From contig JAHJIQ010000007.1 in assembly GCA_018823285.1 (NCBI GenBank), positions 4,536 through 68,535 on the forward strand: a DNA stretch of 64,000 nt. The letters run 5' to 3'. A program made the translations under genes and the position numbers. Positions 16,873 through 29,558 of this stretch are shown in pieces (position 1 is the stretch's first letter; each line of letters begins with the position of its first letter). The DNA is from Pseudomonadota bacterium. Its GTDB lineage: Bacteria > Desulfobacterota > Desulfobulbia > Desulfobulbales > JAGXFP01. The notes under the pieces are model-generated. The model was not told the DNA's origin and did no database searches. It saw only the letters and a program-made list of their open reading frames with translations.

Positions 16873-16949
16873 GCGCCCGTAGCTCAGCCGGATAGAGCAC
16901 CGGCCTTCTAAGCCGTAGGTCACAGGTTCGAATCCTGTCGGGCGTACCA
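16873..16949 (+). tRNA. tRNA-Arg (anticodon TCT), CCA encoded
   Basis: Cloverleaf readable by eye: acceptor GCGCCCG/CGGGCGT, D-arm TAGCTCAGCCGGATAGAGCA, anticodon loop CTTCTAA, T-arm GGTTCGAATCC, 3' ACCA. Confidence 0.9.
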
Positions 16950-17304: not shown

Positions 17305-18588
17305 TCATCTCTCCAGATCACTGAAGATAAAATGGGTGAGGGCTTCTGCTTCCTTCGCGGTAGCGATAAAGGGGGGCATGTATGCTCTTTTATTTCCCAT
17401 ACTCTCATAAATAAAGGTCATGCCTTTGGGTTTCATGCCTTGGGTCAATGAGGTGATGTTGTTGAACGGACCACCGACGGAATGGCAAGAGAGACAGAGA
17501 AGATCAAAGACCTGTCTGCCTGTTTTGCTCATGTTTTCGTCTTTAATCTCCCGGGTATCGACCCATTTTGCTGTATGCAGAATTCCAGCATCTTTTACTG
17601 CATCGATCTCAGTTTTCAGAATCGTGTTTGAGTACATGAAGTTATGAATAATATACGGTCTGCGCCCGCTTTCGCGGATGAATTCAAATGAGCCAAGATA
17701 AAAGAGGCCGAGTACCAGCATGACTGCTGCCAGACCCCGGTTGATGTTGGCAGGCATCTTAATTGCCATACCGAGGCCGCCAAGAATAATCAGAGGTGAA
17801 CAGACAATGAAAATCTTGATTACAGGTTGGATGTCGGGCATGTTTTTAAAAATCAATTCGTGCATGTCCGGGGGCAGGGCGCTTTTGTACCACCATGCGG
17901 AAGTGAGAAAGAGAACAAAGGGGGCCAGAAGCCACTTGGCGCAATAACGGACAAGGGTTGTTCTCAGAGCATCATCTTTTGACCATGAAGCGGTAAGGAA
18001 GCCGAACAGGCCTGCCAACATGATGGCGAGAAAGAATCTGAAAAAGAGGGACGGCCAAAACGTGGGATGAAAAAAACCGTGCCAGAAATTACCAGTGATT
18101 AGCCATTCGCCCGGGGTAAGCATGAAACCTACAATGCCGTTGATCACAAACAGCGATAAGAACGCTGCGGCAAAATATATCCAGCCGATGGTCAGATGGG
18201 TCCTGTTGCTGATTCGGTTGAATGTTTTGTAATAGATAAACAAGGAAATGATCTCGACCAGGAAAAAGACCCACTCGGTGGCCCACGCAAAAACAAAGAG
18301 ATGGATCAGTTTAGAAGTTGCGGCCGGATTTAGAACCGAGATTGTGAACCAGATACCTACTCCGGTCAAAGCCCCGAGCACCATGGTGAGTAGAACAAAA
18401 AGTCGGGTGTGTTTATAAACATACCCTAGGATACTTGGACTGTTTTCACGCAAGCCCTTATGTTCCGTAAGCACCAGAAAAAGTCCGCCGCCGATCGCGA
18501 AATGGGAAATATAGACATGAAGAGTCGCAATCAGGGCAATAAGAAGACCGCCACCGGCAAAGTCTAGTTGCCATACTGGATAGTTCAT
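17305..18588 (-). CDS. Cytochrome bd (CydA)-superfamily-like membrane protein with a fused C-terminal monoheme cytochrome c domain
   Basis: N-terminal TM helices align by eye to CydA (LHVYISHFAIGGGLFLVLTE vs CydA MYHFLFVPLTLG...; ATEWVFFLVE vs AIEGLMAFFLES). The C-terminal ~90 aa carry CLSCH plus a distal Met (YMPPF). Confidence 0.55.
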   Translation of the reverse strand: MNYPVWQLDFAGGGLLIALIATLHVYISHFAIGGGLFLVLTEHKGLRENSPSILGYVYKHTRLFVLLTMVLGALTGVGIWFTISVLNPAATSKLIHLFVFAWATEWVFFLVEIISLFIYYKTFNRISNRTHLTIGWIYFAAAFLSLFVINGIVGFMLTPGEWLITGNFWHGFFHPTFWPSLFFRFFLAIMLAGLFGFLTASWSKDDALRTTLVRYCAKWLLAPFVLFLTSAWWYKSALPPDMHELIFKNMPDIQPVIKIFIVCSPLIILGGLGMAIKMPANINRGLAAVMLVLGLFYLGSFEFIRESGRRPYIIHNFMYSNTILKTEIDAVKDAGILHTAKWVDTREIKDENMSKTGRQVFDLLCLSCHSVGGPFNNITSLTQGMKPKGMTFIYESMGNKRAYMPPFIATAKEAEALTHFIFSDLER

Positions 18589-19655
18589 GACTTACCCTCC
18601 ATTTCACTGCAGACTTTTTTCATCATCCACCATATCAGCCAAATTGCAAAGAGTAGGGCGGTAGAAAAGATGATGAACGGACCGTACACCGGATTGACTG
18701 GTAGCTCGGAGATGTTAATGTAATCCTGCAGATAGCTGTTGCGAGCGATTTCACGGGCAACAGTCATCATCATGATGGTTGCGAGTGTCCACAGTGTAGC
18801 TTTATAAATTCGATAAGATTGAGCATAAATCACTGACAGGGCACAGAATGCAACGGAAGCGATTATCATTATGAAAAAAGCTTTGCCGGCCGGATCAGGC
18901 GTAATAATAATATTGTTTTGCAGGGCGCTCAGGAACCAGAAGCCCACGCCAAAATTGATGATGGTGCTGTAGGTGAACCAGTTGCAGCCGTATGTAATTC
19001 GCTTTTTGCGAGTTTCTTGGGTCAACCCCTGATCACGGTCTGAAAAAACTGCCAGGGATAAACCTCCAACGGCGATCGCAGACAAGATAAAATGAAGATA
19101 TCTGGGAAGCAGGGCTGAGTCGGAAAGATTCAACATCCAACCGCCACGGCAGGAAAAATATCCGAGCCAGCTTGCAGGATCCTGCATGATGCTGATGTTG
19201 TTTGTGAAGAAAAAAGAGATCAGCAGAAACATGGCGATCGGCAGGCCGAGCAACAAGGTCTGGTGACCGCATCTCTCAAACTGGAAATTGTATAAGTATA
19301 CCAGATAGTAACTGATGATAAGAAGGACCACGATAGTCAACCAGAAAGCGGCCATGAGGACTGTGCTGGTATAAAAAAATTGGCCGTATAATGTCTGGAG
19401 GAATAAGAGGGGGGCAACACCGAAATTTATCGTAAATGCCAGCGAGTAGGGGAGGGTCCGGACCAGATCTCTGCTGAGAGAATTTTGTTCTGTGTCAACG
19501 CCGGCCGGTGGCCCGGCAAGTGCAATGAAACCGGAGCCCAGCATAATGTTCATTGCCAGAAAATGAAGAAAAGTGGTTGCTATGAGAAAGATCTGCAGCC
19601 AGACCCAGGAAACCGGAATTGCTTCCGGAGGCGGCATCAGGGAAATAGGATCCAT
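18585..19655 (-). CDS. Polytopic membrane protein, partner of the bd-like cytochrome (related TM1 His motif)
   Basis: 356 aa, about 10 TM helices. FLHFLAMNIMLGSGFIAL resembles TM1 of the downstream gene. 4-nt ATGA overlap with that gene. Confidence 0.5.
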   Translation of the reverse strand: MDPISLMPPPEAIPVSWVWLQIFLIATTFLHFLAMNIMLGSGFIALAGPPAGVDTEQNSLSRDLVRTLPYSLAFTINFGVAPLLFLQTLYGQFFYTSTVLMAAFWLTIVVLLIISYYLVYLYNFQFERCGHQTLLLGLPIAMFLLISFFFTNNISIMQDPASWLGYFSCRGGWMLNLSDSALLPRYLHFILSAIAVGGLSLAVFSDRDQGLTQETRKKRITYGCNWFTYSTIINFGVGFWFLSALQNNIIITPDPAGKAFFIMIIASVAFCALSVIYAQSYRIYKATLWTLATIMMMTVAREIARNSYLQDYINISELPVNPVYGPFIIFSTALLFAIWLIWWMMKKVCSEMEGKS

Positions 19656-19878: not shown

Positions 19879-20367
19879 TTAATCTGCCTGATTCATAGGG
19901 CGAGGTGGAACAACCAGGCCATGAGAGCTGCCCAGCCTTCTGACCATGTCGAGGAATGAGTTGGGCATTGGCAGACTGCGATCTGTCAGGAGAAGGCCAC
20001 GGTCTTCAGCCGTGCGGAGAACTGAGTCGTCCGCATCTTCTCCCCGTTCGATACGGTTACAGATGGTTTGCATGCGCAGAGCATCTGTTAGAGGGATCAG
20101 GACTCTTTCGCCAGTTTCAGTCAGAGCCGCAATTTCCTGATCAATCAATGCTTTGTTTTCGCGGGTGAACGAGGCAAAAGGTTCCTCGGTGTTTGCCTGG
20201 GCAAACAGTGCATTCAAAACGGCTCCGGCCAGCATATTTCCGAAACGACTGTCGCTCTCTTTATGATGTTCCTGAATCTGTCCCTGGATCGTTCTAAAAA
20301 GAATCATTCGAATAATTTCGATGCCCTCTCGAAGTATCGGGATCAGCTTGCTGTCAAACTCCTTCAT
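19879..20367 (-). CDS. Hypothetical cytoplasmic protein
   Basis: ORF with an internal ATG (MKEFDSKLIP...) and no signal peptide. Last gene downstream of the repeat-protein locus. Confidence 0.4.
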   Translation of the reverse strand: MKEFDSKLIPILREGIEIIRMILFRTIQGQIQEHHKESDSRFGNMLAGAVLNALFAQANTEEPFASFTRENKALIDQEIAALTETGERVLIPLTDALRMQTICNRIERGEDADDSVLRTAEDRGLLLTDRSLPMPNSFLDMVRRLGSSHGLVVPPRPMNQAD

Positions 20368-20491
20368 TGTTGATCCTTGCTGTGATTCTGATAAGAGAAG
20401 AGCCGTCATTCTTTCCAGTATTGAAGAAAGAATGACGGCTCATGTTGTTTTCAGGGATGGAGAAACTCCAACCCTGGATTGCGATCAGAGT

Positions 20492-20854
20492 CTATTTGCC
20501 GCTGGTCTGGATCTTGTCACCCTTAGACTCATCAATAATAATGACATCCCCATGGATGGTGCTTCCCGCACCCATGACAACACTATTCATGTTGTTGTCT
20601 CCGCTCCCGGAAGAGGAACTGGAACTGGAGGAAGAAGCACCCCTCTGGGCGCTATGCTGGGCAACTGCAGCCTGTGATTTGGAATTCATGATGATGAATT
20701 TGATGTTCTTGTCGCCCTTTCCCATGTCATCATAACTGGCGATACCGTCGTCAGTGGATTTTGATATGCCGTCATCTAGATCATCGGCCATGGCAACACC
20801 AAAGCATGAAAAGAGGAGCAGTGATAATAGTAAAAACAATTTGATATTTTTCAT
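20492..20854 (-). CDS. Small secreted protein with a poly-Ser tract and one degenerate copy of the locus repeat
   Basis: Signal peptide MKNIKLFLLLSLLLFSCFGVAMA/DD, an S9 run, then NNMNSVVMGAGSTIHGDVIII, which resembles the NxA(V/I)GxGxxAxxGSV core of the neighbouring repeat proteins. Confidence 0.6.
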   Translation of the reverse strand: MKNIKLFLLLSLLLFSCFGVAMADDLDDGISKSTDDGIASYDDMGKGDKNIKFIIMNSKSQAAVAQHSAQRGASSSSSSSSSGSGDNNMNSVVMGAGSTIHGDVIIIDESKGDKIQTSGK

Positions 20855-20945: not shown

Positions 20946-21881
20946 TTATTCAACAGTAACTGATCCCATGCTGGCTTCGGAACCAGCACCAATGGCAACG
21001 TTAGCAGACTTGTCAACATTGGCTTTGTTGGAAATTGTGCCTTTGATGTCCGCATTCTTGATGGTGACAGAACCCATATTTGCGGTAGCGCCCTTACCAA
21101 TGGCAACGTTTGCTGACTTGCTGACGTTAGACTGGTTGGAAACAGTGCCTTTCACATTAGCTCTGTCCAAAGTCACGGAACCCATATTGGCAGTAGCGCC
21201 TTGACCGATGGCAACGTTAGCAGACTTGTCAACATTAGCCTTGTTGGAAACAGTCCCTTTAATGTTGCTGTTTTTCATGGTAACAGAACCCATATTTGCG
21301 GTAGCGCCCTTGCCGATGGCAACGTTTGCGGACTTGCTGACGTTAGAGCGGTTGGAAACGGTGCCCTGCACACTGCCCCTTTCCATGGTAACTGAGCCCA
21401 TGTTGGCGGTAGCGCCCTGGCCGATAGCAACGTTGGCGGATTTGTCGACGTTGGCCCGGTTTGAAATGGTGCCCTTTACATTACCACCCTTCACAGTTAC
21501 AGAACCCATATTGGCGGTAGCGCCCTTGCCAATGGCAACGTTTGCGGACTTGCTGACATTGGACTGGTTGGAAACAGTGCCTTTGATATTAGCCCTGTCA
21601 AGAGACACGGAACCCATGTTGGCGGTAGCGCCCTGACCGATGGCAACGTTTGCAGACTTGTCAACATTGGACTTGTTGGAAACGGTGCCTTGAATGTTGG
21701 AGCCTTTAACGCCTACCGAACCCATCCTGGCGGTGGCACCCTTACCGATGGCAACGTTTGCGGACTTGCTGACATTGGACTGGTTGGAAACAGTACCTTT
21801 AATGTCGGATTTTGCCATTGAGGCAGTTGAAAAACCCATGACCAGACTTAATGCTGTTACTGCGATGACTGCTTTCTTCAT
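20946..21881 (-). CDS. Secreted tandem-repeat protein, 8 x 36-aa repeats (curlin-like core NVAIGxGATANMGSV)
   Basis: Signal peptide ...STASMA/KSD, then eight head-to-tail 36-aa units (GTVSNxSNVxKSANVAIGxGATANMGSVxxxxxxxK) that alternate between two subtypes. Strong RBS aaggagggg. Confidence 0.8.
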   Translation of the reverse strand: MKKAVIAVTALSLVMGFSTASMAKSDIKGTVSNQSNVSKSANVAIGKGATARMGSVGVKGSNIQGTVSNKSNVDKSANVAIGQGATANMGSVSLDRANIKGTVSNQSNVSKSANVAIGKGATANMGSVTVKGGNVKGTISNRANVDKSANVAIGQGATANMGSVTMERGSVQGTVSNRSNVSKSANVAIGKGATANMGSVTMKNSNIKGTVSNKANVDKSANVAIGQGATANMGSVTLDRANVKGTVSNQSNVSKSANVAIGKGATANMGSVTIKNADIKGTISNKANVDKSANVAIGAGSEASMGSVTVE

Positions 21882-21929: not shown

Positions 21930-24900
21930 CTACTTCATGATAACTGAGTTTTTGTTGGACTTGCTGCCACCGGTGGCGACATTGATATTCTGTCCGAAAC
22001 TGAAGGGAGAATCAGTGTCGTTCACCGTAATACCTCTACCTGATGAAACCGATACATTGCCATTCACAGTGCCACTTTTTATAATTACGGCGCCGGAATT
22101 GGCTTCAGAACCGGATCCGACAGCGGCATTTACTGCCACCATACCGCCGTGGACATTGGTTGAAACATTGCCCCGGACGGTGCTGTTTTCGATTTTGGTG
22201 GTGCCCATGTTGGCCTCGGAATTGCTGCCGACTGCGACATTAATGGCCCCTCCACGAACCTTATTGGTGATATTGCCGCCGACATTGCTGTTTCTGATGA
22301 TTGTCGCGGCCTGGTTGGCTTCAGCTCTGCTGCCGACGGCGACGTTCAGTGCTCCACCCCCAACTGTATTCTTGATGTTCCCGCGGACCGTGCTGTTTTC
22401 GATGTTGGTGGCCGCCTGATTGGCTATCGCACGATTCCCGACGGCAACGTTCAGTGCTGCACCACCCACAGTGTTGGTGATGTTGCCCTTAACATCGCTG
22501 TTTTCGATGTTGGTAGCTGCCTGATTGGCAACTGTACGGTTTCCCACTGCTACGTTCAAAGCCGCGCCGGCAACCTGATTGTTTACATTTCCGGAAACAT
22601 TGCTGTTTTTTATCTTCAAGGCTGCCTGATTGGCCTCTGATCTGTTGCCCACCGCAACATTCAGGGCGGCTCCGCCGACTGTGTTCTTAGCAGTGCCTTT
22701 GAAGCTGCTGTTTTCCATCTTGACCGCAGCCTGGTTGGCCTCTACCCTGTTGCCCACTGCGACGTTTAGAGCAGCACCGGCAACTGTGTTTACTGCATTT
22801 CCGCTGAAACTGCTGTTTTCCATTTTGACGGCGGCCTGGTTGGCTTCGGCCCTGTTGCCCACAGCAACGTTCAGAGCAGCTCCGGCAACGGTGTTTACCG
22901 CATTGCCTTTGAAGCTGCTGTTCTCCATTTTGACCGCAGCCTGATTAGCCTCAGCCCTGTTGCCTACTGCAACGTTCAGGCCAGCCCCAGCCACGGTGTT
23001 CACTGCGTTGCCGCTGAAATTGCTGTTCTCCATTTTAACGGCGGCCTGGTTGGCCTCTACCCTGTTCCCCACAGCAACGTTCAAGGCGGCGCCGCCAACG
23101 GTATTCACGGCATTGCCCTTGAAGCTGCTGTTTTCCATCTTGACTGCAGCCTGGTTGGCCTCAGCCCTGTTGCCGACAGCGACGTTCAATCCTGCCCCGG
23201 CCACGGTGTTCACCGCATTGCCTTTGAAATCACTGTTTTTCATGTTCACAGCGGCTTGGTTTGCTTCGGCCCGGTTACCAACAGCAACGTTCAGGGCAGC
23301 ACCGCCGACGGTGTTGACGGCATTGCCTTTGAAACTGCTGTTCTCCATCTTGACGGCAGCCTGATTGGCCTCTACCCTGTTCCCCACCGCAACATTCAGG
23401 CCAGCCCCAGCCACGGTGTTCACCGCGTTACCATTGAAGCTGCTGTTTTCCATTTTGACCGCGGCCTGGTTTGCTTCGGCTCTATTGCCGACTGCAACGT
23501 TTAAAGCCGCTCCGCCAACGGTATTGACTGCAGCGCCTTTGAACTCGCTGTTTTTCATGTTCACAGCGGCCTGGTTGGCTTCTGCCCGATTGCCGACAGC
23601 AACGTTAAGAGCGCCGCCGACGACCGTATTAACGGCTGCGCCTTTCATTGTACTGTTTTCCATCTTCAGTGCGGCCTGATTTGCTTCAGCCCGATTCCCT
23701 ACGGCAACGTTAACTGCCCCAAGGGCTCCGATAGAGTTCACAGCGGCACCTTCAAGGCTGCTGTTCTCCATTTTCACTGAGGCCTGGTTGGCTTCAACCC
23801 GGTTGCCGACTGCAACGTTGACCAGGTTCTGACCGATAGCGGTATTGACAATTGCGCCTTTGACCTTGGAGTTCTCCAAGCTGGTTGCGACCTGTCTTGC
23901 TTCAGCCCTGTTGCCGACGCCTACATTGACGAGATTCTGGCCGACGGCACTGTTGACAATCGCGCCGGTAACCGATGAATTATTAAGGTTGGTTGCGGCC
24001 TGGCTTGCGGTGACTCTGTTACCGACGCCTACATTAACCAGATTTTGCCCGACTGCGGTGTTGATGGCTGCACCGGTCATCTGGCTGCCGCTCATTTTAA
24101 TGGAGGCCTGATTGGCTTCGACCCTGTTGCCGACCCCGACGTTAACCATGTTTTGCCCAACAGCGGTATTAATGGCGGCACCGGTGAGCTTTGATTTTTC
24201 CAGGGTTGTTGCTGCCTGGGTGGCATCGACCCTGTTGCCGACTCCGACATTGACCATATTCTGACCGACGGCAGTATTCAAAACGGCGCCGGTCACCTGA
24301 CTGCCGTTCATTTTGATTGACGCCTGGTTGGCTTCGACCCTGTTTCCAACTCCGACATTGATCATGTTTTTACCGACAGCCGTATTTATGGCGGCGCCAG
24401 TCAATTTGCTGTTATCCATTACCACTGAAGACTGGCTCGCTTTGACTCTGTTGCCGACCGCGACGTTAATTGACTGGTCAACCACGGAAGTATTCAGGAT
24501 TGCGCCGGTCGACGTGCTGTTCTCCATGCGGATCGAAGACTGGTTCGCATCAACCTGATTTCCTACAGCGACATTGATGGCATTTTTGCCCATGGCCGTA
24601 TTGATTGCAGCCCCGGTAATATTGCTGTTCTTGGTATTTATTGATGCCTGATTGGCAGAAACTTTGTTGCCAACGGCGACGTTAATGTTCTTGTCAACCA
24701 TGTTGGTGTTGATCGCTGCGCCGGTGAGTTTGCCACCAAGTTTTATTGATCCCTGGGTTGCCTCAGCTTTGTTGCCAACAGCAACGTTGACGTTCTGCTT
24801 TCCTTTATTGGCGTTAATAACCGCGCCGGACATATCAAGATTCTTAAGTGCAACTGAACTCTGATGGGCTGTACTGTCTTTGCCCACCGCTACGTTTACA

Positions 24901-25025
24901 TCTTTGGAAATCTGGTCCGGGATGTTCAGCACCGCGCCCTTTACATTGGACTCGGCTGCAACCGGAGAGACGGCGGTGATGAAAAAACAGGGAGCAAGAA
25001 TCGTCAGCAATAGTACTTTTTTCAT
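21930..25025 (-). CDS. Giant secreted tandem-repeat protein, ~27-28 x 35-36-aa repeats (core NVAVGNRAEANQ)
   Basis: Start at MKKVLLLTILAPCFFITAVSPVAA/ESN (RBS gggagg). The rest of the protein is repeats such as GNAVNTVAGAGLNVAVGNRAEANQAAVKMENSSFK. No Cys or Trp in the mature part and aromatics are scarce. Confidence 0.8.
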   Translation of the reverse strand: MKKVLLLTILAPCFFITAVSPVAAESNVKGAVLNIPDQISKDVNVAVGKDSTAHQSSVALKNLDMSGAVINANKGKQNVNVAVGNKAEATQGSIKLGGKLTGAAINTNMVDKNINVAVGNKVSANQASINTKNSNITGAAINTAMGKNAINVAVGNQVDANQSSIRMENSTSTGAILNTSVVDQSINVAVGNRVKASQSSVVMDNSKLTGAAINTAVGKNMINVGVGNRVEANQASIKMNGSQVTGAVLNTAVGQNMVNVGVGNRVDATQAATTLEKSKLTGAAINTAVGQNMVNVGVGNRVEANQASIKMSGSQMTGAAINTAVGQNLVNVGVGNRVTASQAATNLNNSSVTGAIVNSAVGQNLVNVGVGNRAEARQVATSLENSKVKGAIVNTAIGQNLVNVAVGNRVEANQASVKMENSSLEGAAVNSIGALGAVNVAVGNRAEANQAALKMENSTMKGAAVNTVVGGALNVAVGNRAEANQAAVNMKNSEFKGAAVNTVGGAALNVAVGNRAEANQAAVKMENSSFNGNAVNTVAGAGLNVAVGNRVEANQAAVKMENSSFKGNAVNTVGGAALNVAVGNRAEANQAAVNMKNSDFKGNAVNTVAGAGLNVAVGNRAEANQAAVKMENSSFKGNAVNTVGGAALNVAVGNRVEANQAAVKMENSNFSGNAVNTVAGAGLNVAVGNRAEANQAAVKMENSSFKGNAVNTVAGAALNVAVGNRAEANQAAVKMENSSFSGNAVNTVAGAALNVAVGNRVEANQAAVKMENSSFKGTAKNTVGGAALNVAVGNRSEANQAALKIKNSNVSGNVNNQVAGAALNVAVGNRTVANQAATNIENSDVKGNITNTVGGAALNVAVGNRAIANQAATNIENSTVRGNIKNTVGGGALNVAVGSRAEANQAATIIRNSNVGGNITNKVRGGAINVAVGSNSEANMGTTKIENSTVRGNVSTNVHGGMVAVNAAVGSGSEANSGAVIIKSGTVNGNVSVSSGRGITVNDTDSPFSFGQNINVATGGSKSNKNSVIMK

Positions 25026-25323
25026 AGCGGCCCTCCCGGAACGCCTGAAGGCTGTTCCAGAATTGAGATTGTTCATTTATTACTGGTCAGCAAGTGATCG
25101 TATATAATTTCCAAGAGTCAGTGTTACATGCAAAGGTGAATATAATATTCAAAAGAAAGGCTCGTTCTGTTTCTGCCTTGGATACTTGAATAGACATTTG
25201 GAAGCCTTAATAACATAATATGCATTATACAAATGCTCCGCTCAACTGACAGTGAACTTTTGCCAATTTTTCTGTGAACAAATCACTCTTTGTAAATATG
25301 GGTTTTCTGTAAACCATTTGCGG

Positions 25324-25722
25324 TTAATCCCAGGTGAAATCGGCGCTGATTTTTGCAGCGCCGGAGACGTTGGAAACATTCAGAACAGTGTCAAACGACA
25401 CGGACTCTCCGTTCATAATCGGCTGATGCCCCTTTATGGGCATTTCTGTTGAGTGGAGCACGGCACCGGATATTGACAGAATGTGCAGAACAAGGTGCCC
25501 CCGCAGAACAATTCGGGAGATGTTTTTAATGCTTCCTTTCACAATTACTACTTTATTGGCAGGGTGATACTCTGCTTCCATGGAATCAAGAGTGACATAG
25601 GCATATTCCTGATCGGTCGAAGTAAGTGTTTTTCCGATGGCCGAGTTGTCGCTAACAGAGAACAACGTAAGTGCTGTAAGTAGCACAAATACCAGTATGG
25701 TGTTAGAAAGTCTTTTGGTCAT
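25324..25722 (-). CDS. Small secreted/anchored accessory protein (predicted beta-rich)
   Basis: N-terminal hydrophobic signal (MTKRLSNTILVFVLLTALTLFSV). The remainder has alternating beta-strand-like patterns. Lies between the secretion genes and the repeat genes. Confidence 0.5.
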   Translation of the reverse strand: MTKRLSNTILVFVLLTALTLFSVSDNSAIGKTLTSTDQEYAYVTLDSMEAEYHPANKVVIVKGSIKNISRIVLRGHLVLHILSISGAVLHSTEMPIKGHQPIMNGESVSFDTVLNVSNVSGAAKISADFTWD

Positions 25723-25836: not shown

Positions 25837-26133
25837 TCACTTCACTGAACTGAACGGTTTTTTTAATTCGTTTTTAACTATTTTGCTCTCAAGTACAGAC
25901 CCATATTCACGGCTGTATACGGTCCGTGTTTCGCCGGTAACTGTGTCGATAACAAAGGCACCTATAACCCCACCTTTGTCGCCTATGGAAGTTGCCCATG
26001 ACGAAAGCTGATAACGCCCGTTATCGAGAGCAAGAGTTGGGGTTCCTTCAACTTCAATTACCTGGTATGCCCCGGTTAGCAGAAGAAACATCAGGGTGAC
26101 ACCAACGCCGAACAAAAAATATTTGATTTTCAT
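25837..26133 (-). CDS. Small membrane-anchored accessory protein
   Basis: MKIKYFLFGVGVTLMFLLLTGAY... single N-terminal TM, 98 aa, same operon. Confidence 0.5.
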   Translation of the reverse strand: MKIKYFLFGVGVTLMFLLLTGAYQVIEVEGTPTLALDNGRYQLSSWATSIGDKGGVIGAFVIDTVTGETRTVYSREYGSVLESKIVKNELKKPFSSVK

Positions 26134-26170: not shown

Positions 26171-26905
26171 TCATTTGGTCTGGGCTCTAGAGAAATCGTC
26201 AGATTGAGCGCCCTGGCCTTCTACCTCTATAAATTCATCCGGATCCAGGATCTTCTGGCCGATAATTTCAGAGACCTCTTTGGTGTCGATTGTGAGTTTC
26301 ACAAAGGCATCGCCAGCGGCGTCCCAGCCGTAGTCTTTCAGCCTGGCAAGGTAGATGGTTGCGAGTACTTTTGATTTAACCACATCTGATTTGAGCATGT
26401 AATTTTCAACGGTCGTCTCACTTTCCAGGGTGAAGCCGACTATCCGTTTTGCAAGTTGTTTGTAAGCATCAATTTCTGCGGCACGCAATGCGCCAAGAGG
26501 GGCAACCATTGCAGGGGTGGAGGTTGCAAAACCGACCCGGGTAAAAGACTTGCCGTTAAAATTCATCGGCATGCCGTCGATGTTCTCAAACTCGTTAAGA
26601 GTGATCGTGGCGGTGGCTTTGGCAATGTCTTTTTCGGCGTCGTAGACCACTTCATCGATTTTGACGCCCCGGATCTCAGCTTTGGTCTTTGATTCGGTCC
26701 GGCCTTCAAAGCTCGTTGCCATCATGTTTTCCACCGACTCGGTGGATCTGATTTTGAGTCCGTAAATTGCCTCTACGATTGCTCGCTCAGCTATAATCTT
26801 AGCGGCTCTGGTGGTCATGATTTTTTTGTTGCCGGCCAGTGCCGTTAATGGTGAGCATAATAGGGCTATTGCGATCAGGATTGTTGAAATTCTAAGGATG
26901 CGCAT
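26171..26905 (-). CDS. LPP20-like periplasmic/lipoprotein-family protein (two LPP20-type repeats)
   Basis: Signal peptide, then two copies of A-R-A-A-x-I-x-A...L-x-x-x-I-x-G-x-x-I/L-x-S-x-T-x-V-E-N (TTRAAKIIAERAIVEAIYGLKIRSTESVENMM; GALRAAEIDAYKQLAKRIVGFTLESETTVENYM). RBS gggagga. Confidence 0.5.
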   Translation of the reverse strand: MRILRISTILIAIALLCSPLTALAGNKKIMTTRAAKIIAERAIVEAIYGLKIRSTESVENMMATSFEGRTESKTKAEIRGVKIDEVVYDAEKDIAKATATITLNEFENIDGMPMNFNGKSFTRVGFATSTPAMVAPLGALRAAEIDAYKQLAKRIVGFTLESETTVENYMLKSDVVKSKVLATIYLARLKDYGWDAAGDAFVKLTIDTKEVSEIIGQKILDPDEFIEVEGQGAQSDDFSRAQTK

Positions 26906-26989: not shown

Positions 26990-28345
26990 TTACCATTCAT
27001 CGTCTTTCAGTTTACGACCAAAACCGAACCCGGCTCTCTTTGGTGCAGCCGCCGGAGCGGGAGCGGCTTCGGGTTGAGCGGCTGGAGCGGCCTGGGCCTG
27101 GGCAATTTCCTGGTCGGCATATACCGCAGTTTCAACGTTCTGGGCAACCGGAGCAGCAGCAACCTGTGGGGTGGAGGCAGCATTCGCTTCTGCGGCCATC
27201 GCCGCCTCGTACAGGATATTGTTCAACGCTTTGCGGCGTGCACGGGCTTCATCACGGAAAGGCATGGTGGTATAAATTGCAATAAACTGGTCCTTGGATA
27301 TTTTCTTGCTGCCGATCTGGTAGGCGGGATCAAATTTTGCCAATGCGGCTTCGGTCTGAGAGTCAAGCTGACCGGTCATTTGAAGATCGTAGCCGTGAAT
27401 GTAAAGCCATTGCTGCACTGCTGCGGTTTTGGCGGCATCATCCATCGAGTAGTATATTTCTTCCAATGATTCCAGCACGATCGGGTCTGGATTTGCATCG
27501 TCTCCAAGCAATCTCCAGTATGGAAGATTGAGATATTTACCGATCATTTGTACCATACTGACCTGAACGAGCAGACGAACCGCTTCATGGCGCCCCTGTA
27601 CTTTTTTGACGGAACCCTTCAGTCCGAAAGTCGGGCCGAAAAGAGTAAGGCCGATCTCTTTTTCCTTCATGGCTTTGTGGACTTCCATACTGTTGGTGGT
27701 GGTCATTTTCGGGATGCCGGTCAACGTGTTGGGATCTATCATATTAAAATCAATGGTGATACGCGCCTTGCCGGTTTTTCCGGTGTTGCCGAAGTTTGCC
27801 CCAACTTGTTCTGATGGCAGGGAGGTTTTGATTCCCTTGATATTGGCAGTTGCAGCGGCATCCATTCCTTCTCCTCTGGTTTCAAGTCCCCTGTCGAATT
27901 CGGTGATGCCACCGGTTAATACCACATCGGGTTTGATTTTGTTCTCAAAGGAAGAGTATCCGGTGACCATCTGGTTCTGAATAAAGGCCGGGTCGTAGGG
28001 GACATAGCCAACACCGCCACCTATCGAGTTCAGGGTGCTTTTCATGATCTCGGTAATATTCCTCTGGATTTCGCCACCGGTTGTAGCGGCGGTGCCTGTA
28101 TTGTCGGCAATGTCGGTGGACATTATATTGACAAGGCCGGTATCATAGACACCGGTCATGATTCCCAGTTCCGAGAGGGCTTTATTGTATGAAGTAATTT
28201 TGACTTCCGGAGCTGATTCTTCAAGCTCAACATCCACGTCGCGCGGGTCCATCCCTCCGCATGAAACGACCAACGGCAGAAATGCAGCCAGCAATGTACT
28301 CCACAGGATCTTTCTGAATAATGCGCCTGAAGTATTAACGCTCAT
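26990..28345 (-). CDS. CsgG/HfaB-family-like outer-membrane lipoprotein with a C-terminal peptidoglycan-binding-like domain and an Ala/Pro/Gln-rich tail
   Basis: Lipobox LVVSC. Segments alignable by eye to E. coli CsgG (DVVLTGGITEFD vs NIMVEGSIIGYE; ARITIDFNMIDPNTLTGI vs IAVNLRVVNVSTGEIL). QQWLYIHGYDLQMTGQLDSQTEAALAKF resembles PG_binding_1. Confidence 0.6.
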   Translation of the reverse strand: MSVNTSGALFRKILWSTLLAAFLPLVVSCGGMDPRDVDVELEESAPEVKITSYNKALSELGIMTGVYDTGLVNIMSTDIADNTGTAATTGGEIQRNITEIMKSTLNSIGGGVGYVPYDPAFIQNQMVTGYSSFENKIKPDVVLTGGITEFDRGLETRGEGMDAAATANIKGIKTSLPSEQVGANFGNTGKTGKARITIDFNMIDPNTLTGIPKMTTTNSMEVHKAMKEKEIGLTLFGPTFGLKGSVKKVQGRHEAVRLLVQVSMVQMIGKYLNLPYWRLLGDDANPDPIVLESLEEIYYSMDDAAKTAAVQQWLYIHGYDLQMTGQLDSQTEAALAKFDPAYQIGSKKISKDQFIAIYTTMPFRDEARARRKALNNILYEAAMAAEANAASTPQVAAAPVAQNVETAVYADQEIAQAQAAPAAQPEAAPAPAAAPKRAGFGFGRKLKDDEW

Positions 28346-28901
28346 GATCTTCCTCTCCATTTCTAACTTAATTAGGATATTAATATATTAAATAAGTGGA
28401 ACCCATATCAAAGAAGGTCGGGTTTGGAACCTCGACATGTAGAGTTTTCCACTCCTAGATTACATAGAGCTGAGTATTAAAGTCAACAAATAAAGTTCCA
28501 GCAAAAACCGGCTTTCGGGACGTGGTGTACAATCATGGAAAAGATCGTGTTGTCAGGGTCTTGGCTCGATTTGTGCTGTCGGCTCGATGTCATGAATCCA
28601 TTATATATCTCAGTGTTACAAATAAACCGTGAAGTTTGTTGCCTGATTTTTGTGATTTAATAACACCTAAAGATTTTTTACAGGTAACAACAGTTTGGCA
28701 AAAGGTGCAATAGGTTGTCAGAAATATATTCCGCCTGTTTTCGCTAATTTTCAAGTTGAACGAGCAGTTGGCCGGGGGATGATATGTGCTGTGCAGAGGT
28801 GTAATTTGCTAGGAGAGAGTTATAATTCGATTGAAAAAGTGGCATCTTGCTGTAATCTGTTAAATGCTGCCAAATGAACAATAAAATGGAAGGTGGATGC
28901 A

Positions 28902-29558
28902 ATGGATGAAATTTTTGCTGAAAATGAGCTATTCTCCGGTCTTGAGAAAAAAGATCGGGACATCATCATGGCGGTGGCTGCTAAAAAGAGTTTCCCGAAG
29001 AATACGGTGATACTCAGTCAGGGAGATGACACGCACTCGTTGTATATAGTCACGAGTGGCAAGGTTAAAGTTAATATTGTCGATGAGAACGGCAAAGAGA
29101 TAATTTTGTCAATTCTTGGCCCGGGCGATTATTTCGGTGAGATGACCGCTATAGAGGAAGGCGCTTCAAGGAGCGCTTCGGTCGTTACCCGGGAAAAGTG
29201 TGAGGTGCTGGTTCTTGCCAAAAAGGATTTCCGGAGGATTATTTCGGACAATCCGGACATTGTGTTCGGGCTGTTAAGAGGAGCCAATGAAAGGATCCGG
29301 AAAGCCAACCGGAAAATTGAAAGCCTTGCCCTTATGGATGTATATGGCCGGGTGGCAAGGCTTTTCATGCAGCTTGCGGTTCCTGATGGTGACAAGCTGG
29401 TTATTCAGGAGAAGCTTACGCATCAGGATATTGCCAACATGGTCGGATCATCAAGGGAAATGGTCAGCAGGGTCATGAAAGAACTGACCATTGGAAATTA
29501 TATTGGCGTCACACAAAAAATCATTGAGATCAATGGCAAGCTGCCATATTCGTGGTAG
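28902..29558 (+). CDS. Crp/Fnr-family transcription regulator (cNMP-binding domain plus HTH)
   Basis: GDYFGEMTAIE...RSASVV cNMP-binding signature and a C-terminal HTH (THQDIANMVGSSREMVSRVMKEL). Divergent from the CsgG-like operon across a ~540-bp AT-rich spacer. Confidence 0.85.
   Translation: MDEIFAENELFSGLEKKDRDIIMAVAAKKSFPKNTVILSQGDDTHSLYIVTSGKVKVNIVDENGKEIILSILGPGDYFGEMTAIEEGASRSASVVTREKCEVLVLAKKDFRRIISDNPDIVFGLLRGANERIRKANRKIESLALMDVYGRVARLFMQLAVPDGDKLVIQEKLTHQDIANMVGSSREMVSRVMKELTIGNYIGVTQKIIEINGKLPYSW

What the first reader, a model, noticed from the sequence alone, without database searches (positions are those of the whole stretch)
21930..25025. Giant Asn/Ala/Val/Gly repeat protein with a gradient of repeat divergence
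The repeats are most divergent at the N-terminus (36-aa units such as GAAINTAVGKNMINVGVGNRVEANQASIKMNGSQVT). They become almost identical in the centre (nine or so 35-aa units GNAVNTV(A/G)GA(A/G)LNVAVGNR(A/V)EANQAAVKMENSSFK) and degenerate again towards a distinct C-terminal cap (..SPFSFGQNINVATGGSKSNKNSVIMK). The mature protein has no Cys or Trp. Nearly every repeat carries invariant N, G, N and Q positions suited to stacked ladders. This pattern is expected for a self-templating solenoid with specialised ends.
Basis: seen in the sequence. Interest (0 to 1): 0.7.

Follow-up and report, generated by a model that had tools for sequence, protein, structure and literature searches.

The report
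Giant subunit of curli-like fibre system
The giant repeat protein is real and is the enlarged subunit of a conserved, apparently undescribed gene cluster in sulfate/sulfur/metal-reducing bacteria, which pairs a new family of 36-residue-repeat secreted proteins with a curli-type (CsgG-fold) outer-membrane channel and so probably builds curli-like surface fibres.

Summary
Observation confirmed. Window 21930-25025 (− strand) encodes a 1031-aa protein: a Sec signal peptide, 27 tandem 35/36-residue units, and a C-terminal cap. The mature protein has no Cys, Trp or Tyr.

The protein belongs to a repeat family with no match in Pfam, NCBIfam or PDB. It is the expanded "class II" subunit (C-terminus ..SNKNSVIMK). 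Relatives carry 3-31 units. It is followed by a "class I" paralog (311 aa, 8 units, ..GSVTVE) and a small secreted DLDDG protein.

The genes directly upstream encode a lipoprotein whose AlphaFold model matches only CsgG (Foldseek E 7e-10), an LPP20-like protein and a ~98-aa anchored protein. In 21 of 21 informative metagenome loci found through the CsgG-like protein alone, a unit-repeat gene and the DLDDG gene lie beside it on the same strand.

The divergence gradient is real. Edge units have positional orthologs. The cap is the best conserved part (86% across five orthologs). Central units are homogenised within each lineage, yet their synonymous sites are randomised, so their identity is held by selection on the protein.

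Likely mechanism: a type-VIII-like secreted cross-β solenoid fibre. Stacking, polymerisation and the export route remain untested. This is a new variant of a known kind.

The parts
21930..25025 (-). Gene for the giant 'class II' repeat subunit (1031 aa including signal peptide; stop codon at 21930-21932)
   Evidence: ORF. SD and start codon. GenBank call of 1031 aa. Five orthologs of 922-1172 aa.
24954..25025 (-). Sec signal peptide (24 aa), with cleavage after VAA before ESN
   Evidence: Read directly from the sequence. The AxA|ES site is conserved in orthologs.
23643..24938 (-). Units 1-12, the 36-residue type (G-A-x-x-N-T-A-V-G-Q-N-x-V-N-V-G-V-G-N-R-V-x-A-x-Q-A-S...). These are the more divergent units, and several have positional orthologs.
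22698..23642 (-). Units 13-21, the nine near-identical 35-residue units (GNAVNTV(A/G)GA(A/G)LNVAVGNR(A/V)EANQAAVKMENSSFK)
   Evidence: Amino-acid identity is 77-100%, DNA identity only 66-88%, and codon sharing is at the random level.
22278..22697 (-). Units 22-25, 35-residue units that diverge progressively
21933..22277 (-). Units 26-27 (ANM/ANS variants) and the C-terminal cap ..GITVNDTDSPFSFGQNINVATGGSKSNKNSVIMK. The last 34 aa correspond to 21933-22034.
   Evidence: The cap is 86% identical across five orthologs. The same ..SNK(N/D)S(V/I)V.K ending defines class II subunits in metagenome loci.
20946..21881 (-). 'Class I' paralog: 311 aa, signal peptide plus 8 units of 36 aa, ending ..ASMGSVTVE
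   Evidence: It is exactly 311 aa and 8 units in L006 and L014 as well. Class I genes are present in nearly every related locus.
20492..20854 (-). Small secreted 'DLDDG' protein (120 aa; DDLDDGISK...NMNSVVMGAGS..GDVIIIDESKGDK)
   Evidence: It forms a conserved family (A6) and is present in 21/21 informative loci.
20400..20441 (-). Terminator-like hairpin (17 bp stem) ending the giant/311/120 transcription unit
   Evidence: consensus scan only.
25224..25286 (-). Promoter-like site (CTGTCA-17-TATAAT, 25252->25224) preceded by the palindrome GTGA-N5-TCAC (25274-25286)
   Evidence: The palindrome is partly conserved in L006 and L014. As a single match it is not statistically significant.
25324..25722 (-). 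132-aa protein with an N-terminal signal or anchor, function unknown
   Evidence: It is 50% identical to a gene that lies in inverted orientation in L006 and L014.
25837..26133 (-). ~98-aa N-terminally anchored protein (GRYQLSSW..GAFVIDTVTGETRTVYSR..LKKPF)
   Evidence: It forms a conserved family (A5) and is present in 18/21 informative loci. Similarity to CsgF is not supported.
26171..26905 (-). LPP20-like periplasmic protein (244 aa; signal peptide cleaved ..ALA|GNKK, no lipobox)
   Evidence: Pfam LPP20 E 1.5e-5, 25.8 bits against a cutoff of 25.9. N-termini are conserved.
26990..28345 (-). CsgG-fold outer-membrane lipoprotein (451 aa; lipobox LVVSC) with a C-terminal peptidoglycan-binding-like helical domain
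   Evidence: AF2 with 44 homologs gives pLDDT 75.6. The top 25 Foldseek PDB hits are all CsgG, E 6.8e-10 to 3e-4. Pfam CsgG scores 18.8 bits, below the cutoff of 20.8, and PG_binding_1 is weak. 688 homologs were found, mostly in Desulfobacterota.
28893..29558 (+). Divergent Crp/Fnr-family regulator gene (cNMP_binding + HTH_Crp_2), a possible regulator of the cluster
   Evidence: Precomputed Pfam on the identical GenBank locus. The same neighbour occurs in L006.

Best explanation
The ORF encodes the enlarged 'class II' subunit of a curli-like (type-VIII-like) surface-fibre system of Desulfobacterota that appears not to have been described.

Proposed pathway:
1. Sec exports the subunits. They are rich in Asn, Ala, Val and Gly, lack Cys, Trp and Tyr, and have almost no Pro, so they can stay unfolded in the periplasm.
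2. They cross the outer membrane through the adjacent CsgG-fold lipoprotein channel. The channel would be tethered to peptidoglycan by its C-terminal domain and assisted by the LPP20-like and ~98-aa proteins.
3. Outside the cell, each 35/36-residue unit folds into one cross-β layer of three to four short strands. The turns fall at the conserved G9-G12, G18-N19 and N32-S33 positions, and the layers are held by stacked Asn/Gln ladders.

The giant would therefore be about 27 covalently pre-stacked layers, a rod of roughly 13 nm if there is one layer per unit. Its conserved N-terminal unit and C-terminal cap would be the interfaces for end-on contact with further subunits, or with the universal class I subunit (311 aa, 8 units). 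Together they would form positively charged matrix or adhesion fibres.

The gradient arises as follows. Central units are kept identical within a lineage by occasional conversion or duplication plus strong selection on the protein. Edge units and the cap evolve by descent and are conserved for their special roles.

Shown here: the gene, the repeats, the signal peptide, the family, the two subunit classes, the conserved gene cluster and the CsgG fold.
Inferred: export through that channel, solenoid stacking, polymerisation, and a fibre or adhesion function.
For: Anatomy of the protein:
- Real exported repeat protein.
- Predicted all-β, with strands at unit positions 4-8, 11-18, 21-31 and 34-36, recurring in every unit.
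- The non-significant Foldseek matches are all β-helices.

The family:
- The exhaustive profile search and local HMMs define a family. Members include signal-plus-2-unit proteins (26 of 116 representatives are 85-105 aa), 3-13-unit class I proteins, and class II proteins with 3-31 units.
- Unit numbers in class II vary widely: 25, 27, 28, 28 and 31 in the orthologs and 3-30 in metagenome loci.

The neighbouring channel:
- The neighbouring lipoprotein has a CsgG fold.

Gene-cluster linkage:
- 5 of 5 loci picked only by CsgG-like homology carry a unit gene beside it: L004, L006, L020, L021, L022.
- 21 of 21 informative metagenome loci do as well.
- All 89 unit ORFs are co-directional with the CsgG-like gene, with a median gap of 642 bp.
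- The order class II -> class I -> DLDDG is conserved in both cluster arrangements.

Specialised ends:
- The cap is 86% conserved.
- Units 1, 3, 5 and 6 have positional orthologs.

Selection on the centre:
- Central units are 86-100% identical over the 29-residue core and 77-100% over the full unit, but only 72-79% identical to any unit of the ortholog.
- Codon sharing among identical residues is 0.487, against 0.469 expected at random.

Precedents in the literature:
- CsgA homologs carry 4-62 repeats (PMC10192328).
- In FapC each long imperfect repeat forms one Greek-key cross-β layer held by Asn/Gln networks (PMC12392863).
Against: - No structure-level proof of stacking. The giant's model was built from a single sequence (pLDDT 58), coordinates could not be inspected, and no fold match was significant.
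- At sequence level the CsgG-like protein is below Pfam's threshold, and hhalign to E. coli CsgG is weak (probability 8%).
- The same α/β fold class also occurs in non-channel lipoproteins (FlgT, HpaA, PelC), which appear lower in the hit list.
- There are no detectable CsgE, CsgF or CsgC counterparts.
- Some family members are not next to the cluster. These include the giant orthologs in the two Desulfuromonas MAGs, which lie between housekeeping genes.
- Fusions of the units to a subtilase or a FecR domain show that the units can also act as a tethering module on proteins that are unlikely to pass a CsgG-type pore in folded form.
- No expression or localisation data exist.
Confidence: 0.55

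Rival explanations
1. It is a monomeric, capped β-helix adhesin or spacer rather than a polymerising amyloid. The giant folds on its own into a long rod. Its conserved ends are capping motifs that prevent end-to-end aggregation. The class I and CsgG-like genes either serve only to anchor it or belong to a separate function.
For: - 27 covalent layers need no partner for stability.
- The N- and C-terminal ends are distinct and conserved, as capping motifs in β-helices are.
- The giant orthologs in Desulfuromonas stand alone between housekeeping genes.
- The weak Foldseek neighbours are monomeric β-helix passengers and lyases.
Against: - The same family includes 2-unit proteins that cannot be stable as monomers.
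- The class II -> class I -> DLDDG order is tightly conserved next to the CsgG-like gene.
- Class II occurs with as few as 3 units (L095).
Confidence: 0.2
2. It is a cell-envelope (periplasmic or outer-membrane-associated) scaffold rather than a secreted fibre. The CsgG-fold lipoprotein with its peptidoglycan-binding tail and the LPP20-like (FlgP-like) protein form a periplasmic ring or platform. The repeat proteins polymerise inside the envelope, for example as a sheath or periplasmic filament.
For: - The fold search also hits FlgT, HpaA, PelC and the LPHT ring (E 6e-4 to 1e-2).
- LPP20 domain and PG_binding_1-like domain.
- The LPP20-like protein is a soluble periplasmic protein.
- The host clade is Desulfobulbales-like, where periplasmic fibres are known in cable bacteria (own knowledge; no link was tested).
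Against: - The 25 best structural matches are all CsgG itself, including the membrane-inserted form.
- The model has the two long β-hairpins that make the CsgG barrel, at residues 146-208 and 215-254.
- A composition free of Cys, Trp and Tyr fits transit in the unfolded state.
Confidence: 0.12
3. It is a surface-templating protein of the ice-binding, ice-nucleating or mineral-binding kind. A flat, perfectly regular Asn/Thr/Ser face of a long solenoid would order water or bind mineral lattices, and the identical central units would maximise lattice regularity.
For: - The architecture recalls bacterial ice-nucleation proteins, with a long array, a homogeneous centre and divergent specialised ends (own knowledge).
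- The solenoid antifreeze MpAFP appears among the weak hits.
- Net charge of +29 and a regular polar surface.
- The hosts are mineral- and sulfur-respiring subsurface bacteria (record titles).
Against: - No Pfam hit to the ice-nucleation or antifreeze families.
- The sources are anaerobic groundwater and sediment.
- This reading does not explain the CsgG-like cluster or the two-class subunit system.
Confidence: 0.05
4. The gradient is only a neutral by-product of tandem-array dynamics and says nothing about function. Unequal crossing-over homogenises the middle of an array while the edges escape.
For: - Central units resemble one another more than any unit of the ortholog, while edge units have positional orthologs.
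- One unit pair in L006 shares 96% of its codons, a recent event.
- Unit number varies from 3 to 31.
Against: - Synonymous sites between the near-identical central units are at the random expectation (0.487 against 0.469). Their amino-acid identity is therefore old and is kept by purifying selection.
- The cap is the most conserved segment.
- The split into 36-aa N-terminal and 35-aa central units is shared by orthologs.
Confidence: 0.08

Closest known systems
Curli (csgBAC-csgDEFG; type VIII secretion; CsgA/CsgB curlin-repeat β-solenoid amyloid)
   Same: - A CsgG-fold lipoprotein gene next to the genes for secreted subunits.
- Subunits are rich in Asn, Gln, Gly and Ala, lack Cys, and are built only of tandem repeats.
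- Two paralogous subunit classes plus a small secreted accessory protein, in a fixed order.
- Repeat number is highly variable: 4-62 in CsgA homologs (PMC10192328) and 3-31 here.
- The second half of the unit carries the curlin-like string G-x-G-N-x-A-x3-Q. hhalign aligns VGVGNRVEANQ with CsgA R5 VGFGNNATAHQ.
   Different: - The unit is 35-36 residues with three to four strands, not the ~23-residue two-strand β-arch.
- No Curlin_rpt match in Pfam, and hhalign probability is only 14%.
- The CsgG-like protein is 451 aa with an added peptidoglycan-binding-like domain and falls below Pfam's CsgG cutoff.
- No CsgE, CsgF, CsgC or CsgD counterparts. An LPP20-like protein, a ~98-aa anchored protein and a DLDDG protein are present instead.
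- Every subunit ends in a defined C-terminal signature.
Fap functional amyloid (FapC/FapB) of Pseudomonas
   Same: - Long imperfect repeats, each forming one multi-strand cross-β layer held by conserved Asn/Gln networks and Gly turns (PMC12392863).
- Major and minor paralogs.
- Motifs of the G-Ψ-Ψ-N-q-a-G-n-q-q-N type resemble L-N-V-A-V-G-N-R-A-E-A-N-Q.
   Different: - Fap uses the FapF β-barrel and the FapD protease, and no such genes are found here.
- FapC has 3 repeats separated by long linkers. Here there are up to 31 contiguous units without linkers.
- No Fap family appears among the Pfam or NCBIfam hits.
- A direct comparison with a FapC sequence was not possible.
Caulobacter holdfast anchor HfaA/HfaB/HfaD
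   Same: A CsgG-family lipoprotein (HfaB) exports non-curlin, multimerising surface proteins. This shows that CsgG-type channels serve other fibre or anchor proteins (own knowledge).
   Different: There is no sequence relation to HfaA or HfaD, the repeat architecture differs, and no holdfast polysaccharide genes were seen nearby.
Bacterial ice-nucleation proteins (InaZ type) and β-helical passenger domains
   Same: Very long arrays of short repeats with a homogeneous centre and divergent, specialised ends, together with a predicted β-solenoid.
   Different: Ice-nucleation proteins have a 16/48-residue periodicity. There is no Pfam match, and the export route and gene context are different.

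Membership tests
Curlin (CsgA/CsgB, Pfam Curlin_rpt) | Sequence match to the curlin repeat model (N-x-Ψ-x-Ψ-x-Q-x-G-x-x-N-x-Ψ-x-Ψ-x-Q, about 23 aa) | tested here: not met
   No Curlin_rpt hit at E<=0.1 for the giant or the 311-aa paralog. hhalign of the unit profile against E. coli CsgA gives probability 14% and covers only the GxGNxAxxxQ string. Against CsgB there is nothing. The unit length is 35-36 aa.
Curli / type VIII secretion system | CsgG outer-membrane lipoprotein channel encoded with the subunits | tested here: met
   Met at the level of fold only. Lipobox LVVSC. AF2 model pLDDT 75.6. The top 25 Foldseek PDB hits are all CsgG, E down to 6.8e-10. The Pfam CsgG score of 18.8 bits is below the cutoff of 20.8, and hhalign to E. 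coli CsgG gives probability 8%.
Curli / type VIII secretion system | Accessory proteins CsgE, CsgF (and CsgC or CsgH) | tested here: not met
   Pfam CsgF E 0.07-0.08 in one member only. hhalign of A5 against CsgF gives probability 1%. A6 against CsgE gives 0.3%. The CsgH hit at E 0.065 is far below its cutoff.
Curli / type VIII secretion system | Nonameric pore, and export of the subunits that depends on it | not testable with these tools
   This needs multimer modelling, cryo-EM or genetics.
Functional amyloid / self-templating β-solenoid | In-register parallel cross-β stacking of repeats, and seeded polymerisation | tested here: inconclusive
Fap amyloid (FapC/FapB with FapF/FapD) | FapC-type repeats, and fapF/fapD genes in the operon | tested here: not met
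   No Fap-related Pfam or NCBIfam hits for any of the ten neighbouring proteins. The channel here has a CsgG fold. No direct comparison with a FapC sequence was made.
Trimeric autotransporter head repeats (Hep_Hag/YadA-like) | Hep_Hag repeat match and a C-terminal YadA β-barrel anchor | tested here: not met
   No Pfam hit. The C-terminus is a 34-aa cap, not a barrel. The likeness of NVAIG..A.A to NSVAIG was only recalled from memory.
Ice-nucleation protein | 16-residue (48-residue) octapeptide-based repeats, Pfam Ice_nucleation | tested here: not met
   No Pfam hit. The period is 35/36 aa.
New 36-residue-unit family (this work: class I and class II subunits) | Signal peptide; units G-x3-N-x8-N-[VIL]-[AG]-[VIA]-G-x4-A-N-[QM]; a class-specific C-terminus; a location beside the CsgG-like and DLDDG genes | tested here: met
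   The giant has the class II ending ..SNKNSVIMK, and the 311-aa paralog has the class I ending ..GSVTVE.

The most novel reading that the evidence does not exclude
Desulfobacterota, together with some bins labelled Nitrospirota, carry a distinct functional-amyloid system that depends on a CsgG-type channel. Its subunits are built from a non-curlin 36-residue unit, with one multi-strand cross-β layer per unit. A universal short class I subunit nucleates or anchors the fibre. An optional class II subunit is a covalently pre-stacked fibre segment whose length is set genetically by unit number (3-31). Enzymes such as subtilases, and FecR-domain proteins, are grafted onto the fibre through 2-6 units of the same kind.
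Probability: 0.4. Interest if true: 0.8.

Novelty: new variant of a known kind. Interest (0 to 1): 0.7.

Why it matters
If correct, this would be a third bacterial functional-amyloid or fibre system, after curli and Fap, and the second known to use a CsgG-type channel.

- It would be found in environmentally important anaerobes: sulfate, sulfur and metal reducers from groundwater, sediments and biofilms.
- It would extend the substrate range of type VIII secretion to polypeptides of more than 1000 residues.
- It would offer a natural series of 2 to 31 identical-layer solenoids for studying how layer number, end caps and heterotypic stacking control nucleation.
- It would provide a new Cys-free, modular scaffold for engineered living materials, with natural enzyme fusions as a precedent.
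- It gives a name and a context to several families that are currently annotated only as hypothetical or DUF4384 proteins.
- Desulfobacula phenolica, which is cultured, carries the class I version, so the idea can be tested directly.

Tried and rejected
- The word-indexed homolog search with the giant returned only two subtilase fusions.
- The exhaustive profile search listed 116 representatives but missed the giants themselves, probably because of HMMER's composition filters. Local searches with --nobias find them at up to 1127 bits. The count of 116 therefore understates the family.
- PDB sequence hits to pentatricopeptide-repeat (PPR) proteins are an artefact of the shared 35-residue period.
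- The Pfam hits Endonuclease_5 and IMUP, and the NCBIfam hits, are all far below their cutoffs.
- I considered that the 120-aa DLDDG protein is a one-unit paralog, because NSVVMGAGS..GDVIII looks like a unit. hhalign gives probability 0.3%, so I dropped this.
- I considered that the giant's C-terminal units grade into the class I type as a docking surface. Only the ANM/ANS change supports this. Unit 1 carries more class I states (7 of 24) than units 22-26 (0-3 of 24). I kept it only as a weak remark that both ends look more ancestral than the centre.
- I considered a riboswitch or other known RNA in the ~200-nt leader. There are no Rfam hits, even at E<=1.
- I considered that the 132-aa gene, which is inverted in orthologous loci, sits on a phase-variable invertible element. 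Only a 12-nt imperfect inverted repeat was found, with one arm inside a coding gene, so I rejected this.
- I considered T1SS, T5SS and TAA export routes. A Sec signal peptide is present, and there are no RTX, TPS or barrel domains.
- Literature searches combining CsgG with LPP20, DUF4384, Desulfobacterota genera, Desulfobulbaceae or cable bacteria found no description of this cluster.

Full report
**1. The observation**

The window comes from GenBank MAG GCA_018812685.1, contig JAHJDD010000024.1, labelled "Proteobacteria bacterium". The closest relatives of its proteins are in Desulfobulbaceae and Desulfurivibrionaceae bins.

On the − strand, 21930..25076 is one open frame. The first ATG gives 1048 aa. 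The ATG at 25025 is preceded by GGGAGG and gives the 1031-aa product that GenBank also calls, so the finding's coordinates are exact. The N-terminus MKKVLLLTILAPCFFITAVSPVAA|ESN is a standard Sec signal peptide.

The rest of the protein is 27 tandem units:
- units 1-12 are 36 residues;
- units 13-25 are 35 residues;
- units 26-27 are irregular and are followed by the cap ..GITVNDTDSPFSFGQNINVATGGSKSNKNSVIMK.

Tandem Repeats Finder reports periods of 105/108 nt and their multiples, with scores up to 1197. N5, N14, G18 and A23 are invariant, and Q25 is present in 25 of 27 units. The mature chain has no Cys, Trp or Tyr and only 2 Pro. A, N, V and G make up 59%, and the net charge is +29.

The nine central units (13-21) are 77-100% identical. 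The first two and last two units are 24-65% identical to the others. Because the units share only 59-88% DNA identity, an assembly artefact is unlikely.

**2. The surroundings in the window**

Downstream on the same strand lie two genes. The first encodes a 311-aa paralog (20946-21881) made of a signal peptide and eight 36-residue units of a sister type, GTVSNxSNVxKSANVAIGxGATANMGSVxxxxxxxx, ending ..GSVTVE. The second encodes a 120-aa secreted protein (20492-20854). A 17-bp terminator-like hairpin follows.

A promoter-like site lies about 200 nt upstream of the giant's start. No Rfam family matches the region.

Upstream on the same strand are four genes:
- a 451-aa lipoprotein (lipobox LVVSC; weak Pfam CsgG and PG_binding_1 hits);
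- a 244-aa LPP20-like periplasmic protein;
- a ~98-aa N-terminally anchored protein;
- a 132-aa secreted protein.

A Crp/Fnr-family regulator gene is divergent from this set.

**3. The lipoprotein has a CsgG fold**

With an alignment of 44 homologs, AlphaFold2 gives pLDDT 75.6. The topology is α-β-α-β, two long β-hairpins (146-173/185-208 and 215-240/244-254), a helix, and then a helical C-terminal domain.

In Foldseek against the PDB, the 25 best hits are all CsgG chains (E 6.8e-10 to 3e-4, probability 1.0). Other lipoproteins of the same α/β class (HpaA, FlgT, PelC) follow at E of about 6e-4 and weaker.

Sequence methods barely detect the relationship. Pfam gives 18.8 bits against a cutoff of 20.8. 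A profile search of PDB sequences finds no CsgG. hhalign to E. coli CsgG gives probability 8%. The family is large: 688 hits, almost all in Desulfobacterota bins.

**4. The repeat family**

Pfam, NCBIfam and PDB contain no relative. The PPR hits come from the shared 35-residue period.

A profile of 37 units was searched exhaustively against 1.84 billion representatives and found 116 proteins. This is an undercount. The giants themselves were lost, probably to composition filters, whereas local searches with --nobias score them at 620-1127 bits.

Members fall into these types:
- signal peptide plus exactly two units (26 of the 116 are 85-105 aa);
- proteins with 3-13 units;
- proteins with 2-3 C-terminal units behind a FecR domain;
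- proteins with 4-6 N-terminal units in front of a subtilase.

62 of the 116 end in G-[ST]-[VI]-x-[VI]-[EK]-COOH.

**5. Orthologs of the giant**

A scan of one genome per species found five orthologs. Three come from Desulfobulbales-like bins: the window (27 units plus cap), L006/L015 (1069 aa, 28 HMM hits) and L014 (1172 aa, 31 hits). Two complete ones come from Desulfuromonas bins (992 and 922 aa; 27 and 25 hits), and there is one truncated copy.

All orthologs share:
- the signal peptide;
- a first unit beginning (E/A)S.(V/L)KGAV.N.P;
- the split into 36-residue N-terminal and 35-residue central units;
- the cap.

The last 34 residues are 86% identical on average (minimum 79%), against about 57-64% overall. 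In L006 and L014 the whole neighbourhood is syntenic, and the partner is again exactly 311 aa with 8 units. In the Desulfuromonas bins the giant stands alone between housekeeping genes.

**6. The gene cluster is conserved**

Five loci were chosen only because they encode a homolog of the CsgG-like protein on a long contig. They are Desulfobacula phenolica L004, L006, Desulfuromonas L020, Desulforhopalus L021 and a Nitrospirota-labelled bin L022. All five carry a unit-repeat gene next to the CsgG-like gene, usually followed by a homolog of the 120-aa DLDDG protein. The LPP20-like and ~98-aa genes are also present.

A metagenome scan with the CsgG-like alignment returned 80 loci. These were screened with local HMMs:

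| Feature | Result |
|---|---|
| Informative loci (at least 2 kb upstream and 5 kb downstream) with a unit gene | 21 of 21 |
| Informative loci with the DLDDG gene | 21 of 21 |
| Informative loci with the ~98-aa gene | 18 of 21 |
| Unit ORFs co-directional with the CsgG-like gene | 89 of 89 |
| Median gap from a unit ORF to the CsgG-like gene | 642 bp |

The subunits fall into two classes by their C-termini:
- Class I ends ..ANMGSVxV[EQKD], has 2-13 units, and occurs in nearly every locus. The window's 311-aa protein belongs here.
- Class II ends ..SNK(N/D)S(V/I)V.K and has 3-31 units. Examples are 30 in L030 and L074, 22 in L050, 21 in L023, 18 in L082, 15 in L096 and 3 in L095. The window's giant belongs here.

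The order class II -> class I -> DLDDG is kept in both arrangements. The trio lies either upstream of the CsgG-like gene or, as in the window, L006, L014, L023 and L030, after the ~98-aa gene.

Other family members are scattered singly in genomes. Subtilase fusions sit next to an ECF sigma/anti-sigma pair beside the cluster.

**7. The gradient**

Over a 29-residue core of each unit, central units of the window are 86-100% identical to one another. They are only 72-79% identical to any unit of the L006 ortholog, which has its own consensus (NLAAGSQ..QNSxL in place of NVAVGNR..ENSSF). Units 1, 3, 5 and 6 find their best match at the same position in the ortholog. The centre is therefore homogenised within each lineage, and the edges evolve by descent.

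Among residues that are identical between central units, the same codon is used in 48.7% of cases. Random draws from the gene's own codon usage would give 46.9%. The orthologs compared with each other give 44%. The near-identity is thus not the trace of a recent duplication. Synonymous sites are saturated while the protein sequence is held constant, which means strong purifying selection (or selection against DNA repeats). One unit pair in L006 shares 96% of its codons, so conversion or duplication does still occur.

**8. Structure**

The AF2 single-sequence model of the giant has pLDDT 58 (70-83 in the centre) and pTM 0.58. It is entirely β, with strands at unit positions about 4-8, 11-18, 21-31 and 34-36 and breaks at the conserved Gly/Asn positions.

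A 35-36-residue, multi-strand, Asn/Gln/Gly-framed layer has a precedent in FapC, where each imperfect repeat forms one Greek-key cross-β layer (PMC12392863). The string G-x-G-N-x-A-x3-Q in the second half of the unit is the curlin arc-plus-motif-b pattern, and hhalign aligns it with CsgA R5, but at only 14% probability (motif description in PMC10192328).

**9. Most likely mechanism, and what is inferred**

*Shown.* This is an exported repeat protein. It belongs to a two-class subunit family that is genetically locked to a CsgG-fold lipoprotein, an LPP20-like protein, a ~98-aa anchored protein and a DLDDG protein.

*Inferred.*
- Subunits stay unfolded in the periplasm, since they have no Cys, Trp or Tyr and few Pro.
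- They cross the outer membrane through a CsgG-type pore anchored to peptidoglycan.
- Outside, they fold into a cross-β solenoid, one unit per layer.
- Short class I subunits, down to two units, must stack on each other to be stable.
- The giant is a pre-stacked segment of about 27 layers (roughly 13 nm). Its conserved ends mediate contacts with class I or with further class II molecules.
- The product is a basic surface fibre for matrix building or attachment.

I put 0.55 on this overall. Rivals are a monomeric capped adhesin (0.2), an envelope-internal scaffold (0.12), a purely neutral origin of the gradient (0.08) and an ice- or mineral-templating role (0.05).

**10. Comparison with known systems and novelty**

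The system works like curli in four respects: a CsgG-fold channel, repeat-only Asn/Gln-rich subunits, two paralogous subunits plus a small secreted accessory protein, and variable repeat number.

It fails the tests for membership of the curlin family:
- there is no Curlin_rpt match;
- the unit is 35-36 residues rather than about 23;
- there are no CsgE, CsgF or CsgC counterparts.

It also lacks the Fap machinery. Seven full-text searches found no description of this cluster. GenBank names the proteins hypothetical or DUF4384.

I rate it a new variant of a known kind, with interest 0.7. The case rests on consistent comparative evidence and can be tested in a cultured carrier (Desulfobacula phenolica). 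Export route, stacking and function remain predictions.

Noticed in passing
window 25274-25286 and 28893-29558: The palindrome GTGAACAAATCAC (GTGA-N5-TCAC) lies just upstream of the promoter-like site of the giant gene, and similar sequences sit at the same place in L006 and L014. A Crp/Fnr-family regulator gene lies divergent from the cluster in all three loci. This may be cNMP- or redox-dependent control. A single match is not significant (0.86 expected by chance).
   Followed up: partly
window 25324-25722; L006 12845-13243; L014 9107-9505: The 132-aa secreted-protein gene between the accessory genes and the giant is co-directional in the window but inverted in the two syntenic orthologous loci (50% and 72% identical proteins). 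Only a 12-nt imperfect inverted repeat flanks it in the window, so this looks like a fixed inversion rather than a switch.
   Followed up: partly
L001/L002 1791-3533; L021 5202-7040; P0124, P0181: Some proteins carry 4-6 units of the same repeat at the N-terminus of a subtilase (Peptidase_S8 with a fervidolysin-like prodomain). They are always preceded by an ECF sigma factor and a putative anti-sigma gene, and lie divergent from the CsgG-like cluster. They may be a fibre-tethered or fibre-processing protease.
   Followed up: partly
P0163, P0184, P0197, P0204, P0224, P0226, P0250 (L011 10001-10990): Some secreted FecR-domain proteins end in 2-3 units of the repeat with the class I C-terminus. 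The one locus examined (L011) is next to lnt, not next to the cluster.
   Followed up: partly
window 22698-23642: Nine units that are nearly identical in protein use codons as differently as chance allows (0.487 shared against 0.469 expected). This means either very old homogenisation under strong purifying selection, or selection against DNA-level repeats.
   Followed up: yes
(method): The exhaustive HMMER search did not return the giant or its orthologs, although they score 620-1127 bits when the bias filter is off. Highly repetitive members of this family are systematically under-reported by default filters.
   Followed up: partly
L004 2639-8518 (Desulfobacula phenolica); L022 3884-7723: A second CsgG-related set lies close to the cluster. 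In L004 it comprises a DUF2807 protein, a FlgT_N-like protein, a 668-aa TPR-CsgG protein and a 670-aa fn3-like protein. In L022 it comprises DUF2807 and an LpoB/CsgG/FlgT_M protein. A DegP-like protease follows the ~98-aa gene in both.
   Followed up: no
window 20946-21881 and 24073-24510: Units alternate in pairs, giving 216-nt (72-aa) super-repeats in the 311-aa gene and in the N-terminal part of the giant, and 210/315-nt periods in the centre. This suggests two alternating layer types.
   Followed up: no
window 17305-19655 and 16873-16946: Downstream of the cluster are two membrane-protein genes (a 427-aa protein with a weak cytochrome bd subunit I match, and a 356-aa protein) and a tRNA gene. 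Upstream are MTHFR/FlpD/ferredoxin-type genes, which are syntenic with L006.
   Followed up: no
window 19879-20409: A 176-aa ORF (GenBank aa) without a signal peptide lies after the terminator-like hairpin. A similar-sized gene (164 aa) follows the cluster in L006. Its relation to the system is unknown.
   Followed up: no
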